From an uncultured Planctomycetales bacterium (lineage in GTDB: Bacteria > Omnitrophota > Gorgyraeia > Zapsychrales > JANLHA01): DNA of 64,000 nucleotides. The notes under the pieces are model-generated. The model worked only from the letters and a program-made list of their open reading frames with translations, was not told where the DNA came from and made no database searches. Where the stretch lies: assembly GCA_964474085.1 (NCBI GenBank), contig CAYYRJ010000004.1:11656-75655 (forward strand). Direction: 5' to 3'. Position numbers and translations under genes: made by a program. Shown here one piece after another: positions 8,261 through 11,570 of the stretch (position 1 is the stretch's first letter; each line of letters opens with the position of its first letter).

Positions 8261-10246
8261 TCAATTATTAAAAACGGGTTGGCTTGGGACAACAGAAAAG
8301 CTTTGTTTTTTCAAAATCTTTTCCAAAAGAAGGTTAAGTTCTTTATGTTTAGGATACATCCGGATTCCTTGCTTTAAAAGAATTGATGCTGGCTCATAAA
8401 AACCAAAAGTTTCAAAATTTCGAGCCACTGCTAAGTAGGTCTGCGCAGATTGATCCTCCAATAACAACGCAAAGACAGTATCAAAAGAGTGCTCAAATCC
8501 TTCATGAATAAATTGCAAAACTGCAAGCCGCGAATAAACATTTCTGCGGTCGTCAGAACTTAAATCTTGTCGAGTTAAAAATTTTAGAATATCCATCGCC
8601 TTTTGATCCTGTTGCGTTAAATAATAAATGTCTACAAGGTTCAAACGGCTTATTGTACTATTAGGATCACAGTCAATTGCTTCTAAAAAGTTGGCTTCTG
8701 CCTGTCGATAATCTTTTTCTTTTAGCGAAATAAGGCCTGCGGTGATTCTGCCATCGATATGATTTTTGTTTATCTTGAAAACTTTAGCAAGCATCGCCTT
8801 TGCATCATCGATATCGCCATTTTCAGAATAAATAAGCGCCAATTTTGTATAAATGTCCTCGAGACTATATCGCGCATAAGGTGAAATTGCAAAGCGCTTT
8901 AAATAAATCTCATAGTAATTTAGCGCTTTACTATATTCTTTGACTTGAAATGCATGATTTGCAACAGCGTTTAATGGAATCGGACTTAGAACGATGCTCA
9001 ACCAATATTCACTATAACTTTTCTCACTTTTTACTATCACGTTAAATCTTTGCGTAACGCAGAACAATATTAACGAAATACCAGAAACTAATAAAATAAA
9101 AAGAGATTGAGAAATAAACGCTTTAAGATTTCCCAAAAATATTGCCACCAAAATAAAAAAGCCCATTGAACTAATAAAAAACCAATACGGTTCAATCACC
9201 AAGCCGACTTCTGGATGAGCTAAACTTCCTGGCAATAGAAATAAAAAACCTGCCATAAACCAAAACCCTGCAAAAAAAATCAGACGAAAACCAATAAAGC
9301 GCATCAGTACCCCAAAAAATATTCCAAAAATAAAAAATAATGTTAAAAAATGTGATACTGCTTCGTTCTGGGAAAGGGGGGAAATAGAATAAATCCAAAT
9401 GTGGTTGATTGGGATAAACAATTTTGTCAAATACCACAAAACCAGATTTGCAAGCGATCCCCCAAAAGTAACAAAGGAGAGCCCTAAATATTCAAATTTA
9501 TTTGATATCCCAAGCGAAAGGGCACTGGCAGCACACAGTGAGCGCCAGATAAAAAATAAAACTAATACAGTCACTGCAAAAGGAAGCATCGTAAAGATCG
9601 CAAATTTAAAACTTTTCCGTCGATAAAAATACGCCCAACAAAAGAGATATCCTGCAAGAAGCCAAGATGTTTCTAACAACAGAAATGATATTAACCCAAA
9701 GAAAAACGCCGATAAAATATCTTGGAATTTTTTATGATAAATATATCTATCGTAAAAAATAAAGCTCAGTTGAAAACAAAGCGCCGAAAGTAATACAGAA
9801 TTAAAAACAACTTGATTTACAATCTCCGCGTTCATCGGATGGAAACAAAAAAGAACAGCTGCAAACAATGAAACCATACGCGCTTGAGTCAATATCAACG
9901 CGATCCTAAACAAACAAAGTAAATTAAGATAAAACAACAGTATGTTCAAAATATGGAACGGAACAACATTCTTGCCCCATAAAGAAAAAAGAAAATCATT
10001 TAATAAAGGATCAAGCGGATTGTAATGTTGTGTTGAGGTTTTTGAAAATTGGGCAAATAAAGACGCCCACGAAGGAGCCTTAACATCCATATGCGTAAAA
10101 TCGTCATATTTAAAACCATTATGTAGGGTTGGTAAATACGTCGCTAAACAAACGGCTAGTAAAAAAAAAGCAGGGAAAAGCGGCAGAGCAAAAATCCGAT
10201 TAATAAATTGTATAAAATTTGACTGTTTTTCAAAAATATTCTTCAT
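8261..10246 (-). CDS. Polytopic membrane protein with C-terminal TPR repeats; TMTC/PMT_2-like GT-C glycosyltransferase candidate (paralog of 3571-5334)
   Basis: Multi-TM N-terminal domain with HYNPLDPLLNDF and VIEPYWFFISSMGFFI motifs shared with the 3571 protein. The C-terminus has TPR-like repeats (YYEIYLKRFAISPYA, EANFLEAIDCDPN). Confidence 0.5.
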   Translation of the reverse strand: MKNIFEKQSNFIQFINRIFALPLFPAFFLLAVCLATYLPTLHNGFKYDDFTHMDVKAPSWASLFAQFSKTSTQHYNPLDPLLNDFLFSLWGKNVVPFHILNILLFYLNLLCLFRIALILTQARMVSLFAAVLFCFHPMNAEIVNQVVFNSVLLSALCFQLSFIFYDRYIYHKKFQDILSAFFFGLISFLLLETSWLLAGYLFCWAYFYRRKSFKFAIFTMLPFAVTVLVLFFIWRSLCAASALSLGISNKFEYLGLSFVTFGGSLANLVLWYLTKLFIPINHIWIYSISPLSQNEAVSHFLTLFFIFGIFFGVLMRFIGFRLIFFAGFWFMAGFLFLLPGSLAHPEVGLVIEPYWFFISSMGFFILVAIFLGNLKAFISQSLFILLVSGISLILFCVTQRFNVIVKSEKSYSEYWLSIVLSPIPLNAVANHAFQVKEYSKALNYYEIYLKRFAISPYARYSLEDIYTKLALIYSENGDIDDAKAMLAKVFKINKNHIDGRITAGLISLKEKDYRQAEANFLEAIDCDPNSTISRLNLVDIYYLTQQDQKAMDILKFLTRQDLSSDDRRNVYSRLAVLQFIHEGFEHSFDTVFALLLEDQSAQTYLAVARNFETFGFYEPASILLKQGIRMYPKHKELNLLLEKILKKQSFSVVPSQPVFNN

Positions 10247-10253
10247 TAGAATT

Positions 10254-11570
10254 TTATTTTAATCGTTTAAACCATACGACACTGTTCCATCGTCGAGACT
10301 TTTCAGGAGAATACCGAAGAAAGGGAAACCATTTCTTAAACGTTCTAAAAACTCCGTTTTTATTGATCCAAAGCGCGTACTCGACATATTCAGGATAATT
10401 GGAAAGATGATTTTCTTCCGTACGCGCCCGTAAATAATACACAAAGCTAATCGCAACTAACGCTAAAGTTTGTTTTAACGCAACCGCGGTTCCGGCGATT
10501 GAAAAAAATGGCAACGAAATCAGCCACCAGCTTGTTACTTTTGCTAAATACGCCGGATGTTTCGTAAAACGATACGGCCCATCGGTAATAATCCCACGAT
10601 AGGTAAGATTAGACATCCGATACCCAAAGGCAACCGTCGCCAAACCATACACAGCAGACAATGCAATAATACTTGCGCCGCATAAATAATAAAAATGCGG
10701 CGTAAACATGAGCCACTGGTCCCATGTAAAACCGCTTTCGTAATGCAATCGACCAATCCCTATCCAACGATAAAATGGCTCATAACAAGCCAAACACACC
10801 CACCAACCTAAAATTGTCGGTTCCGTTGACTGAATATGCGTATCAATGATCCGCAAAGTCAAAAGATATCCCAGCACGCCATAAAAGACGTCAAATGTAT
10901 AAAAAATATTTAACAAATGGCTATAAAGAGCAATAAACGTTCCGCCACTTTTCCAATCAAAGGAAAAAACCAAATGCAAGTATTCGACCAGAAGGCTAAA
11001 CATAAAGGGAAGGAAGAACGCTTTTATAAACCAAACCCGAGCATGCTCTAGAAGAATGATCCATTTGATCTGTTTCCAGCGACCAGATAGAAGACATCCA
11101 AAATGCCAATAACTATCATAAGGATCTTTTTGACGTCGATCAATAAAAGGGAAGTAGAGCAAACTTAAAAAAATAATCCACGGGCCTACATATTTTAAAA
11201 AATTAAAAAAATATCCATAAAACACAATCACCCGTGGAGATTGACGATAAAAAGGATTGACCCCATACAATCCTAAAATAATTAAAAACGTACCAAATAA
11301 TCCAATCAACTTGATGACAAGACGCTCCCGATTAAATGCTGCCGGCTGCGTTAACCCACATGACACACGACGATAAAATTTTAAAAAATAAAGGTCCCTA
11401 ATTCCCAAGATACCGGCGCTAAGCAATAGACCAAGCGCAATCCAAAGAACTTGCGAATCAGCAGGAAAAATACAAAAAGTCATCCAGGAAAACGAAAGAA
11501 ATACGAGCAGAACAAGCGCATTAAATCTAAAATTGGACGAAGAAGGAGGGCGTATTAGTGGAGTCGTCAT
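10254..11570 (-). CDS. Polytopic membrane protein with C-terminal ICMT/PEMT-family (isoprenylcysteine carboxyl methyltransferase-like) domain
   Basis: About 8 N-terminal TM helices. The C-terminal region has DGPYRFTKHPAYLA followed by EENHLSNYPEYVEYA, matching the RHPxY...EE(x)nY signature of the ICMT / phospholipid methyltransferase superfamily. It forms an operon-like pair with 8261-10246. Confidence 0.6.
   Translation of the reverse strand: MTTPLIRPPSSSNFRFNALVLLVFLSFSWMTFCIFPADSQVLWIALGLLLSAGILGIRDLYFLKFYRRVSCGLTQPAAFNRERLVIKLIGLFGTFLIILGLYGVNPFYRQSPRVIVFYGYFFNFLKYVGPWIIFLSLLYFPFIDRRQKDPYDSYWHFGCLLSGRWKQIKWIILLEHARVWFIKAFFLPFMFSLLVEYLHLVFSFDWKSGGTFIALYSHLLNIFYTFDVFYGVLGYLLTLRIIDTHIQSTEPTILGWWVCLACYEPFYRWIGIGRLHYESGFTWDQWLMFTPHFYYLCGASIIALSAVYGLATVAFGYRMSNLTYRGIITDGPYRFTKHPAYLAKVTSWWLISLPFFSIAGTAVALKQTLALVAISFVYYLRARTEENHLSNYPEYVEYALWINKNGVFRTFKKWFPFLRYSPEKSRRWNSVVWFKRLK

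What the first reader, a model, noticed from the sequence alone, without database searches (positions are those of the whole stretch)
8261..11570. Inverted two-gene unit: ICMT/PEMT-like methyltransferase-domain membrane protein co-oriented with the second TMTC-like protein
These are the only minus-strand genes in the 64-kb window, 7 nt apart. The 438-aa protein couples about 8 TM helices to a C-terminal RHPxY...EE signature of isoprenylcysteine carboxyl methyltransferases. Bacterial ICMT-domain proteins have no established substrate. Being operonic with a putative protein glycosyltransferase next to the pilins suggests a protein- or lipid-carrier-modifying role.
Basis: partly seen in the sequence, partly recalled or inferred. 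Interest (0 to 1): 0.55.

Follow-up and report, generated by a model that had tools for sequence, protein, structure and literature searches.

The report
Membrane methyltransferase paired with glycosyltransferase
Two back-to-back genes beside a pilus gene cluster encode an uncharacterised membrane methyltransferase and a pilin-glycosyltransferase-like enzyme; the same kind of pairing, and even a fusion of the two enzyme types, occurs in unrelated bacteria, so they probably work in one sugar-attachment pathway.

Summary
ORFs 10254-11570(-) (438 aa) and 8261-10246(-) (661 aa) lie 7 nt apart and are the only credible minus-strand genes in the window.

The 438-aa protein passes Pfam ICMT (29.3 bits, cut-off 24), just misses PEMT, and fails DUF1295. 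Its motif is KHPAY...TEENHL, not RHPxY. It belongs to a discrete, rare family of about 440 aa (906 clusters in 1.84 billion proteins) that matches no curated functional family.

The 661-aa protein is a divergent GT-C glycosyltransferase with an invariant DD motif and a C-terminal TPR domain. Its closest described analogue is the Pseudomonas pilin glycosyltransferase TfpW.

The main new evidence is a recurrent link between the methyltransferase family and GT-C enzymes:
- a TPR-GT-C gene lies within 2 kb in 8 of 14 Omnitrophota-type loci;
- a PMT_2-type GT-C gene abuts the family gene in 9 proteobacterial loci, four of which also carry an ArnC/GtrB-like GT2;
- the two modules are fused in one 848-aa protein found in two independent samples.

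Pilin linkage is only local synteny.

The methyltransferase most likely modifies a lipid-linked intermediate of a GT-C glycosylation pathway. The substrate is unknown. I rate it a new variant of a known kind, of moderate interest.

The parts
10254..11570 (-). 438-aa polytopic membrane methyltransferase of the ICMT/PEMT superfamily, a member of a discrete ~440-aa family
   Evidence: ORF. Pfam ICMT 29.3 bits against cut-off 24. More than 2000 full-length homologs. 906 clusters at E<=1e-30 in the exhaustive search. AF2 pLDDT 89.
10956..11570 (-). Family-specific N-terminal extension (residues ~1-205, five predicted TM helices) with invariant polar residues R83, K87, D144, D152 and K183
   Evidence: Alignment invariants. 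Helices 14-34, 40-63, 81-104, 112-144 and 170-202 in the model. Loop charges fit an N-in topology. No Pfam, NCBIfam or PDB match. Not a duplicate of the C-terminal half.
10548..10580 (-). GPYRFTKHPAY motif (residues 331-341), the counterpart of the ICMT RHPxY cofactor motif
   Evidence: G331, Y333, R334, K337, H338, P339, A340 and Y341 are invariant in 34 sequences. The motif lies within the Pfam ICMT match 311-389.
10404..10430 (-). RARTEENHL motif (residues 381-389), the counterpart of the ICMT EE motif
   Evidence: R381, A382, T384, E385, E386, H388 and L389 are invariant.
10247..10253 (-). 7-nt spacer between the two genes, consistent with co-transcription
   Evidence: ORF coordinates. The scan lists one terminator-like site on the minus strand inside the 661-aa gene (stem 9980-9958) and four inside the 438-aa gene. 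The total, six against 4.1 +/- 2.0 expected, is at chance level, and no site lies in the spacer.
8261..10246 (-). 661-aa GT-C-fold glycosyltransferase with a C-terminal TPR domain (TfpW-like / TMTC-like architecture)
   Evidence: ORF. TPR families hit residues ~425-600. Residues 28-187 align to P0138 residues 10-178, which overlaps P0138's PMT_2 hit of 31.9 bits against cut-off 26.1. AF2 pLDDT 83.
10100..10105 (-). [quoted passage not shown]
   Evidence: Invariant in alignments A3 and A4. The DDX motif is functionally required in TfpW.
8297..8989 (-). TPR superhelix (residues ~420-650), predicted periplasmic
   Evidence: Pfam TPR_19, TPR_2, TPR_14 and others. Foldseek matches to CTPR, OGT and PilF TPR structures.
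11571..11757 (.). 187-bp divergent intergenic region between the methyltransferase gene and the HlyD gene. No recognisable promoter or RNA element.
   Evidence: Sequence. Promoter scan at chance level with no site in this region. No Rfam match.
3571..5334 (+). Context: 587-aa paralog of the 661-aa protein (same membrane-domain subfamily plus TPR), between PilC and the pilins
   Evidence: A4N profile E=2.2e-75. TPR_19 hit.
5712..8245 (+). Context: five type IV pilin-like genes (two 94%-identical major pilins and three minor pilins), convergent with the 661-aa gene
   Evidence: N_methyl and ComP_DUS hits on four of the five genes. The fifth (7586-8245, 219 aa) has no Pfam hit and is called pilin-like from its prepilin leader motif and 61-64% identical syntenic orthologs in L001 and L005. 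Identity and tails.
15901..17766 (+). Context: third GT-C plus TPR protein (621 aa) with a direct PMT_2 hit. It is syntenic with the unit in L001, L005, L086 and L087.
   Evidence: PMT_2 44.7 bits. Synteny.

Best explanation
The unit encodes two inner-membrane enzymes that act in one lipid-carrier-dependent, extracytoplasmic glycosylation pathway. The 661-aa protein is a GT-C glycosyltransferase. It has a DD motif in its first periplasmic loop and a periplasmic TPR domain that selects the acceptor. It takes a sugar from a polyprenyl-phosphate-linked donor and attaches it to a periplasmic acceptor, and the neighbouring pilins are the obvious candidates, as with TfpW. The 438-aa protein is a SAM-dependent methyltransferase with an ICMT-type catalytic core and a family-specific five-helix N-terminal extension. 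Its active site faces the cytoplasm. It methylates a membrane-embedded intermediate of that pathway before the intermediate is flipped or used. That intermediate is most likely the lipid-linked sugar donor, or alternatively a lipid acceptor. Shown here: the domain assignments, conservation of the cofactor motifs, and the recurrent genetic coupling and fusion with GT-C enzymes. Inferred: the topology, the identity of the substrate, and pilins as the final target.
For: The catalytic core is ICMT-type with invariant GPYRFTKHPAY and RARTEENHL motifs. The AF2 model is confident. The partner is GT-C, shown through the P0138/PMT_2 bridge and invariant D48-D49. TfpW has the same architecture (646 aa, 11 TM, DDX motif, C-terminal TPR), is encoded next to pilA, and is required for pilin glycosylation. 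The GT-C coupling is seen in several independent ways. An A4N-type TPR-GT-C gene lies within 2 kb in 8 of 14 Omnitrophota-type loci. A different, TPR-less PMT_2 GT-C abuts the family gene in 9 proteobacterial loci on at least three branches of the family tree, co-directional in 7 (immediately upstream in 6, about 600 nt downstream in L027). In 4 of those loci there is also a full-length ArnC/PgfS-like GT2 with a C-terminal hydrophobic hairpin, the class that makes polyprenyl-phosphate sugars. P0187 is an 848-aa fusion of the methyltransferase module (residues 49-423, 5e-136) and a c7-type GT-C (residues 438-837, 1e-96), found on two contigs from independent samples. The fusion fits a cytoplasmic methyltransferase C-terminus joined to a cytoplasmic GT-C N-terminus (for loop charges).
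Against: About two thirds of the 93 loci examined have no GT-C neighbour. A Pfam scan of 119 neighbours from 41 dereplicated loci found no recurrent partner. Within Omnitrophota the gene also occurs among unrelated, mostly housekeeping, genes (L007-L010, L088, L089). In L087 it occurs without the 661-aa partner. No ArnC/GtrB-type GT2 lies next to the unit in this window. Pilin genes are not enriched near the family. No structural match could be obtained for either membrane domain. The methyl acceptor is wholly inferred.
Confidence: 0.5

Rival explanations
1. It is a stand-alone housekeeping envelope-lipid methyltransferase, acting for example on a phospholipid head group (PEMT-like N-methylation) or on the lipid A phosphate (LmtA-like). 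Its proximity to GT-C genes reflects a general envelope neighbourhood, not a shared pathway.
For: Most loci show heterogeneous or housekeeping contexts. In L003/L004 the gene overlaps the end of a Psd - CDP-alcohol phosphatidyltransferase operon. PEMT scores 24.9 bits, just under its cut-off of 25. LmtA shows that an ICMT-like bacterial enzyme can methylate the lipid A phosphate. ArnC/ArnT-like pairs are classic lipid A modifiers, so the proteobacterial cassette could be a lipid A phosphate-masking module.
Against: The Psd/Pss context occurs in one organism only among 85 loci. There is no NCBIfam match to any lipid-modifying equivalog. The covalent fusion with a GT-C and the overlapping reading frames with GT-C genes are hard to explain without a shared pathway.
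Confidence: 0.25
2. It is a small-molecule or detoxifying methyltransferase. From my own knowledge MddA, a membrane ICMT-like enzyme, S-methylates methanethiol. On this reading the enzyme is unrelated to glycosylation.
For: MddA is an established bacterial H2S/methanethiol S-methyltransferase (abstracts listed). That it is a membrane protein of the ICMT family is my own recollection and is not confirmed in the papers I could read. The variable genomic context would fit a stand-alone enzyme.
Against: The family has a large conserved five-helix extension with invariant charged residues inside the membrane region. That suggests an amphipathic lipid substrate. The GT-C fusion and adjacency argue the same way.
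Confidence: 0.07
3. It is a pilin-modifying methyltransferase. It would act on membrane-anchored prepilin at the cytoplasmic face, for example on the N-terminal amine or on Glu5.
For: The unit flanks the pilin genes in the window, L001, L005, L086 and L087. In L006 the gene follows a major-pilin-like gene by 40 nt on the same strand. A pilin-like gene precedes the P0234 fusion gene. A crude motif scan found no prepilin-peptidase signature in the window. P0251 fuses the module to a TraX-like acyltransferase. From my own knowledge, TraX acetylates F-pilin.
Against: Prepilin-like ORFs are no denser within 3 kb of family genes than further away (0.22 vs 0.19 per 10 kb), and they are confined to one Omnitrophota subclade plus L028. 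The family is widespread in proteobacteria without any pilus context.
Confidence: 0.06
4. It is a genuine protein-S-isoprenylcysteine O-methyltransferase, an orthologue of Ste14/ICMT.
For: The best Pfam hit is ICMT. Some databases name homologs Ste14 or ICMT.
Against: The NCBIfam ICMT equivalog scores 17 bits against a cut-off of 160. No PDB ICMT sequence is detected, even with a family profile. The exhaustive profile search returns only 1715 proteins, so it does not merge with canonical ICMTs. From established knowledge, CaaX prenylation is not a known bacterial pathway.
Confidence: 0.02

Closest known systems
ICMT / Ste14 family (Pfam PF04140; archaeal Ma-ICMT, eukaryotic ICMT)
   Same: A polytopic membrane protein. 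The C-terminal catalytic region matches PF04140 above its cut-off. It has counterparts of the RHPxY and EE cofactor motifs.
   Different: It is about twice the size of the 190-aa archaeal type and has a conserved five-helix N-terminal extension. It scores 17 bits against a cut-off of 160 on the ICMT equivalog. No detectable sequence similarity to solved ICMT structures. Bacteria have no known prenylcysteine substrates.
LmtA of Leptospira interrogans (lipid A 1-phosphate methyltransferase)
   Same: A bacterial inner-membrane, SAM-dependent enzyme described as Ste14p-like. It methylates a polar group of a membrane lipid.
   Different: No curated LmtA-type model matched. As far as I could find, LmtA has not been reported to be coupled to a GT-C enzyme.
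TfpW of Pseudomonas aeruginosa group IV strains (pilin D-arabinofuranosyltransferase)
   Same: For the 661-aa (and 587-aa) protein, the size is similar (646 aa). Both have a cytoplasmic N-terminus, ~11 TM helices, a GT-C DDx motif in the first periplasmic loop and a C-terminal periplasmic TPR domain. Both are encoded within a pilin gene cluster.
   Different: Sequence homology to TfpW was not tested. No D-Araf donor genes (DprE1/E2) were looked for or seen near the unit. TfpW systems are not known to include an ICMT-like methyltransferase.
ArnC/ArnT, GtrB/GtrC and Pgf-type polyprenyl-phosphate sugar systems (GT2 synthase, flippase, GT-C transferase)
   Same: In L027, L040, L054 and L073 the family gene sits with a full-length ArnC/PgfS-like GT2 and a PMT_2 GT-C, the canonical parts of such systems.
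   Different: A membrane methyltransferase is not a described component of these systems. No GtrA- or ArnE/F-type flippase was identified beside it. In the window itself the GT2 component is not adjacent.
Eukaryotic TMTC1-4
   Same: A GT-C membrane domain followed by TPRs on the non-cytoplasmic side.
   Different: No Pfam hit of any kind on the membrane domain at E<=1. It is related to PMT_2 only through a bridge. A bacterial analogue (TfpW) is a closer functional comparison.

Membership tests
ICMT/PEMT superfamily (Pfam PF04140 and relatives) | Domain score above the curated gathering threshold | tested here: met
   PF04140 scores 29.3 bits against 24 on residues 311-389. Most homologs also carry PF04140.
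ICMT/PEMT superfamily (Pfam PF04140 and relatives) | Conserved cofactor-binding motifs (RHPxY-like loop and EE helix) | tested here: met
   GPYRFTKHPAY and RARTEENHL are invariant in 34 sequences, with K replacing R. Assigning these motifs to SAM binding rests on established knowledge of ICMT structures.
Protein-S-isoprenylcysteine O-methyltransferase (NCBIfam NF040696 equivalog) | Whole-protein score above the equivalog cut-off | tested here: not met
   17.2 bits against a cut-off of 160, matching only positions 112-170 of 190.
PEMT (PF04191) phospholipid N-methyltransferase | Domain score above the gathering threshold | tested here: not met
   24.9 bits against 25, a marginal miss.
PEMT (PF04191) phospholipid N-methyltransferase | Genomic association with phospholipid synthesis genes | tested here: not met
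   A Psd/Pss operon context occurs only in L003/L004 among 85 loci.
   DUF1295 scores 18.4 bits against a cut-off of 20.4, below ICMT. NnrU and Steroid_dh were not reported at E<=1.
LmtA lipid A phosphate methyltransferase | Sequence orthology to L. interrogans LmtA | not tested
   The LmtA sequence and paper were not retrievable. No NCBIfam model other than NF040696 came up at E<=10.
GT-C glycosyltransferase (PMT_2, PF13231), 661-aa protein | Direct match of the membrane domain to a GT-C profile | tested here: not met
   No Pfam family at E<=1 for residues 1-420. hhalign against shallow PMT_2-type alignments gave P~0.01-0.02.
GT-C glycosyltransferase (PMT_2, PF13231), 661-aa protein | Transitive homology to a protein with a PMT_2 domain over the same region | tested here: met
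   Residues 28-187 align to P0138 residues 10-178 (31% identity, E=2e-13 pairwise, 1.6e-7 database-wide). P0138 residues 79-198 hit PMT_2 at 31.9 bits against 26.1.
GT-C glycosyltransferase (PMT_2, PF13231), 661-aa protein | Acidic DDx/DxD motif in the first extracytoplasmic loop | tested here: met
   D48-D49 are invariant in 13-15 homologs. The location of the loop is inferred from the model's helices.
GT-C glycosyltransferase (PMT_2, PF13231), 661-aa protein | GT-C fold by structure comparison | tested here: inconclusive
TfpW-like pilin glycosyltransferase | Architecture (N-in, ~11 TM, DDx motif, C-terminal periplasmic TPR) and a gene next to pilin genes | tested here: met
   Searches compared with the description of TfpW.
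TfpW-like pilin glycosyltransferase | Sequence homology to TfpW; glycosylated pilin | not tested
   The TfpW sequence is not in the available collections. Pilin glycosylation needs experiment.

The most novel reading that the evidence does not exclude
The ~440-aa family is a previously unrecognised class of lipid-carrier methyltransferase. It would methylate a polyprenyl-phosphate-linked sugar, or its phosphate or carboxylate, on the cytoplasmic face. GT-C enzymes would then deliver a methylated glycan to periplasmic targets, which in Omnitrophota would be type IV pilins. This would add a new 'tailoring' component to GtrB/ArnC-GT-C glycosylation systems.
Probability: 0.2. Interest if true: 0.7.

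Novelty: new variant of a known kind. Interest (0 to 1): 0.5.

Why it matters
ICMT-fold methyltransferases are known to methylate prenylcysteine and the lipid A phosphate and, from my own knowledge, phospholipid amines and thiols. None has been tied to GT-C glycosylation. A discrete, conserved family that is repeatedly adjacent to, and once fused with, GT-C glycosyltransferases points to an undescribed tailoring step in lipid-carrier-dependent surface glycosylation. The family has members in cultured bacteria (Paraburkholderia, Cupriavidus, Ralstonia, Pandoraea, Nevskia, Microbulbifer), so the question can be tested directly. For Omnitrophota, it adds a concrete hypothesis for how their pili are decorated: TfpW-like enzymes plus a methyltransferase.

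Tried and rejected
- Foldseek of the 438-aa model against the PDB gave no match with E<=0.001.
- phmmer and a profile hmmsearch against PDB sequences gave no hit, even at E<=10.
- Foldseek of the 661-aa model was swamped by TPR structures and says nothing about the membrane domain.
- hhalign of shallow alignments (661 N-terminal domain vs PMT_2-type proteins) gave only P~0.01.
- I tested for internal duplication, with the N-terminal half as a degenerate second ICMT/PEMT domain as in Cho2. This was rejected at hhalign P 0.18-0.29.
- I considered the phospholipid-operon idea from L003/L004. It is not general.
- I tested for family-wide pilin association and rejected it.
- Promoter and terminator scans were at chance level.
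- Rfam found no element in 7900-12100.
- NCBIfam gave no functional family.
- The LmtA primary paper could not be opened.
- The source contig look-up returned only a 4.5-kb ENA copy without a taxon label.
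Full report
**1. Observation.** The window has ORFs at 8261-10246(-) (661 aa) and 10254-11570(-) (438 aa), 7 nt apart. All other minus-strand ORFs of at least 120 aa are nested inside longer plus-strand ORFs. So this pair is the only credible minus-strand unit in 64 kb. The AT skew jumps to 0.17-0.19 over 8-12 kb, which is consistent with the inverted coding strand. Upstream lie a partial secretin, PilB with an MshEN c-di-GMP domain, PilC, a 587-aa membrane-TPR protein and five pilin-like genes. On the other side, transcribed divergently, lie a HlyD-type adaptor and a BcsA-like GT2-PilZ synthase. 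After these come RsmE, a third membrane-TPR protein (621 aa), GalE and a long polysaccharide cluster.

**2. The 438-aa protein.** Pfam places residues ~311-398 in ICMT (29.3 bits, cut-off 24). PEMT scores 24.9 (cut-off 25) and DUF1295 scores 18.4 (cut-off 20.4).

- An alignment of 34 homologs down to 38% identity shows invariant GPYRFTKHPAY and RARTEENHL motifs.
- The first 250 residues also carry many invariant polar residues: R83, K87, D144, D152, K183, D227 and the HIRSTEPT block.
- AF2 gives a confident model (pLDDT 89, pTM 0.88).
- From the helices and loop charges I infer an N-in, C-in topology with five extra N-terminal helices (residues 1-~205) followed by a five-segment ICMT-like core. 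This topology is an inference.
- The two halves are not duplicates of each other.
- There is no NCBIfam family. The ICMT equivalog scores 17 bits against a cut-off of 160.
- No PDB sequence is detected, even with a family profile, and there is no Foldseek match.
- An exhaustive profile search of 1.84 billion representatives finds 906 clusters at E<=1e-30 and only 1715 at E<=1e-3. The family is therefore discrete and fairly rare, and it does not merge with canonical ICMT/PEMT proteins.
- Members occur in Omnitrophota, Rickettsiales MAGs, Burkholderiaceae (Paraburkholderia, Cupriavidus, Ralstonia, Pandoraea), Nevskiales, Steroidobacteraceae, Microbulbifer, Myxococcota and others.

**3. The 661-aa protein.** Its C-terminal ~240 residues are TPRs. 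The membrane domain has no direct Pfam hit, but three lines of evidence support a GT-C assignment:

- Residues 28-187 align (31% identity; E=1.6e-7 against 5.8 billion sequences, 2e-13 pairwise) to residues 10-178 of P0138. That segment overlaps P0138's above-threshold PMT_2 match.
- D48-D49 (FKYDDF) and H136-P137 are invariant.
- The 587-aa gene belongs to the same subfamily (2e-75), and the 621-aa gene hits PMT_2 directly at 44.7 bits.

The "GT-C plus TPR" reading is therefore supported by a bridge, not by a direct hit. The structural test was uninformative because TPR hits dominated. The closest described analogue is bacterial rather than eukaryotic. TfpW of P. aeruginosa is 646 aa with a cytoplasmic N-terminus, 11 TM helices, a required DDX motif and a C-terminal periplasmic TPR domain. 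It is encoded next to pilA and is needed for pilin glycosylation.

**4. Is the pairing conserved?** I compared 93 loci carrying a family member: 80 from a genome scan and the rest from protein look-ups.

In 14 Omnitrophota-type loci, a 661-type TPR-GT-C gene lies within 2 kb in 8:
- adjacent and co-oriented in the window, L001, L005 and L086;
- adjacent but convergent in L002 and L011;
- 1.5-1.9 kb away in L006 and L009.

The other six loci differ. In L087 the methyltransferase keeps its place between a PMT_2-TPR gene and the minor pilins, but the 661-aa partner is missing. L007-L010, L088 and L089 place it among unrelated genes, mostly housekeeping ones.

**5. The GT-C link outside Omnitrophota.** This is the decisive addition.

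- A different, TPR-less PMT_2-type GT-C ("c7") abuts the family gene in nine proteobacterial loci. It is co-directional in seven (immediately upstream in six, about 600 nt downstream in L027) and on the opposite strand in two.
- These loci fall on at least three separate branches of a neighbour-joining tree of the family. The tree is approximate and has no support values.
- In four of the nine loci a third conserved gene is a ~320-aa GT2. It matches PgfS (237-287 bits) and ArnC (146-179 bits) over their full lengths and has a C-terminal hydrophobic hairpin. This is the class that makes polyprenyl-phosphate sugars for GT-C enzymes.
- P0187 (848 aa) is a fusion of the methyltransferase module (residues 49-423, 5e-136) and a complete c7-type GT-C (residues 438-837, 1e-96). 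The identical ORF occurs on contigs from two independent samples.
- The short linker fits a cytoplasmic C-terminus of the methyltransferase joined to the cytoplasmic N-terminus of a GT-C.

**6. What is not conserved.**

- A Pfam scan of 119 neighbours from 41 other dereplicated loci found no recurrent partner. The maximum was 3, for RmlD/epimerase.
- The Psd - CDP-alcohol phosphatidyltransferase context of L003/L004 is unique to that organism.
- Prepilin-like ORFs are no denser within 3 kb of family genes than further away (0.22 vs 0.19 per 10 kb). They are essentially confined to one Omnitrophota subclade.
- The pilus linkage is therefore local synteny. The whole block PilB-PilC-TPR-pilins-[TPR, methyltransferase]-RsmE-TPR-RecA is inherited. 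It is not a family-wide association.

**7. Mechanism.** I judge the most likely mechanism (confidence about 0.5) to be that the methyltransferase and the GT-C enzyme act in one lipid-carrier-dependent glycosylation pathway. From established knowledge, SAM is cytoplasmic and ICMT-fold enzymes bind amphipathic lipid substrates at the cytoplasmic leaflet. GT-C enzymes use polyprenyl-phosphate sugars on the periplasmic side. The simplest shared molecule is the lipid-linked donor, which would be methylated before flipping. A lipid acceptor such as lipid A is the alternative. In this window the TfpW-like 661- and 587-aa enzymes make pilins the candidate final acceptor. One minor pilin has a Ser/Thr/Pro-rich tail (0.49 over its last 45 residues). 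The substrate and the target are inferences.

The rivals are:
- a stand-alone lipid methyltransferase, PEMT- or LmtA-like (0.25);
- a small-molecule methyltransferase (0.07);
- a pilin methyltransferase (0.06);
- a true prenylcysteine methyltransferase (0.02).

**8. Comparison with known systems.** LmtA methylates the 1-phosphate of lipid A, and the primary paper's title calls it similar to yeast Ste14p. I found no paper in the searchable library that links an ICMT-type enzyme to a GT-C glycosyltransferase.

The protein is a member of the ICMT/PEMT superfamily. It is not a member of any curated functional family. Its extended architecture and its genetic coupling to GT-C enzymes make it a new variant of a known kind.

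**9. Limits.**
- No structural comparison of the membrane domains was possible.
- Gene calls in high-GC loci were made with simple ORF rules and checked with profiles.
- The tree has no support values.
- The P0251 and P0234 fusions rest on single contigs.

Noticed in passing
window 5712-6131 and 6235-6645: Two tandem major-pilin genes are 94% identical at the protein level (128 of 136 residues). They differ mainly in the leader peptide. L001 and L086 have a single copy, so this looks like a recent duplication.
   Followed up: partly
window 11758-14896: The HlyD-type adaptor and BcsA-like GT2-PilZ synthase are absent from the syntenic loci L001, L005 and L086. There the methyltransferase gene directly faces RsmE. 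This looks like a 3-kb insertion of a c-di-GMP-controlled polysaccharide synthase.
   Followed up: partly
window 17799-57641: About 40 kb of sugar and polysaccharide genes (GalE, a Wzz-like gene, many GTs) lie between the 621-aa PMT_2-TPR gene and RecA. In L001, L086 and L087 those two genes are adjacent, and in L006 the methyltransferase gene is directly followed by RecA. This is probably a strain-specific polysaccharide island. GC falls to 0.35-0.39 in parts of it.
   Followed up: partly
window 496-2292: PilB carries an N-terminal MshEN-type c-di-GMP-binding domain, and the nearby synthase carries PilZ. Both pilus assembly and polysaccharide synthesis here look c-di-GMP-gated.
   Followed up: no
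window 6659-7216: The minor pilin (185 aa as called) has a Ser/Thr/Pro-rich C-terminal tail (0.49 over the last 45 residues) ending in CTAGTAPCPQ. This is a plausible O-glycosylation region. The called start probably lies upstream of the true one, because the prepilin motif begins near residue 42.
   Followed up: no
window 33700-35040: A 446-aa ORF inside the polysaccharide island matches the 621-type GT-C membrane-domain profile (E=4.8e-13). It would be a fourth GT-C-like gene in the window.
   Followed up: no
L090 3508-5964, L091 3-2450, L041 5921-8704, L092 8130-9413: A large membrane protein with a Spermine_synth (aminopropyltransferase-like) domain abuts family members in three lineages, including both the GT-C fusion and the TraX fusion. 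Its role is unexplained.
   Followed up: partly
P0251 (L092 6001-8133) and P0234 (L093 1366-3882): There are further fusions of the methyltransferase module: one with a TraX/Acyl_transf_3 membrane acyltransferase and one with a beta-lactamase-family serine hydrolase. Each is seen on a single contig only. The second follows a pilin-like gene.
   Followed up: partly
L059-L079 (Paraburkholderia/Burkholderia loci), e.g. L061 7911-9881 and 11436-12368: In Paraburkholderia the family gene lies 77 nt downstream of a bacterial collagen-like (Collagen_mid) gene and next to a convergent EAL-domain gene. This arrangement is conserved in about 10 species.
   Followed up: no
L003/L004 8418-11380: Psd, a CDP-alcohol phosphatidyltransferase and the family gene form an overlapping operon in one uncultured organism. 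This is the only phospholipid-synthesis context found.
   Followed up: yes
L005 and L007 record titles: Contigs labelled 'uncultured Planctomycetales bacterium' encode family proteins 75% (L005) and 56% (L007) identical to the window's that fall inside the Omnitrophota clade of the family tree, and L005 is also syntenic with the Omnitrophota loci. The taxonomic labels of these MAGs look doubtful.
   Followed up: no
L088 9464-14201: In one Omnitrophota genome the family gene is convergent with a nonulosonic-acid biosynthesis cluster (NeuB, PglD-like, DegT, CMP-transferase). This is another sugar-related neighbourhood.
   Followed up: no
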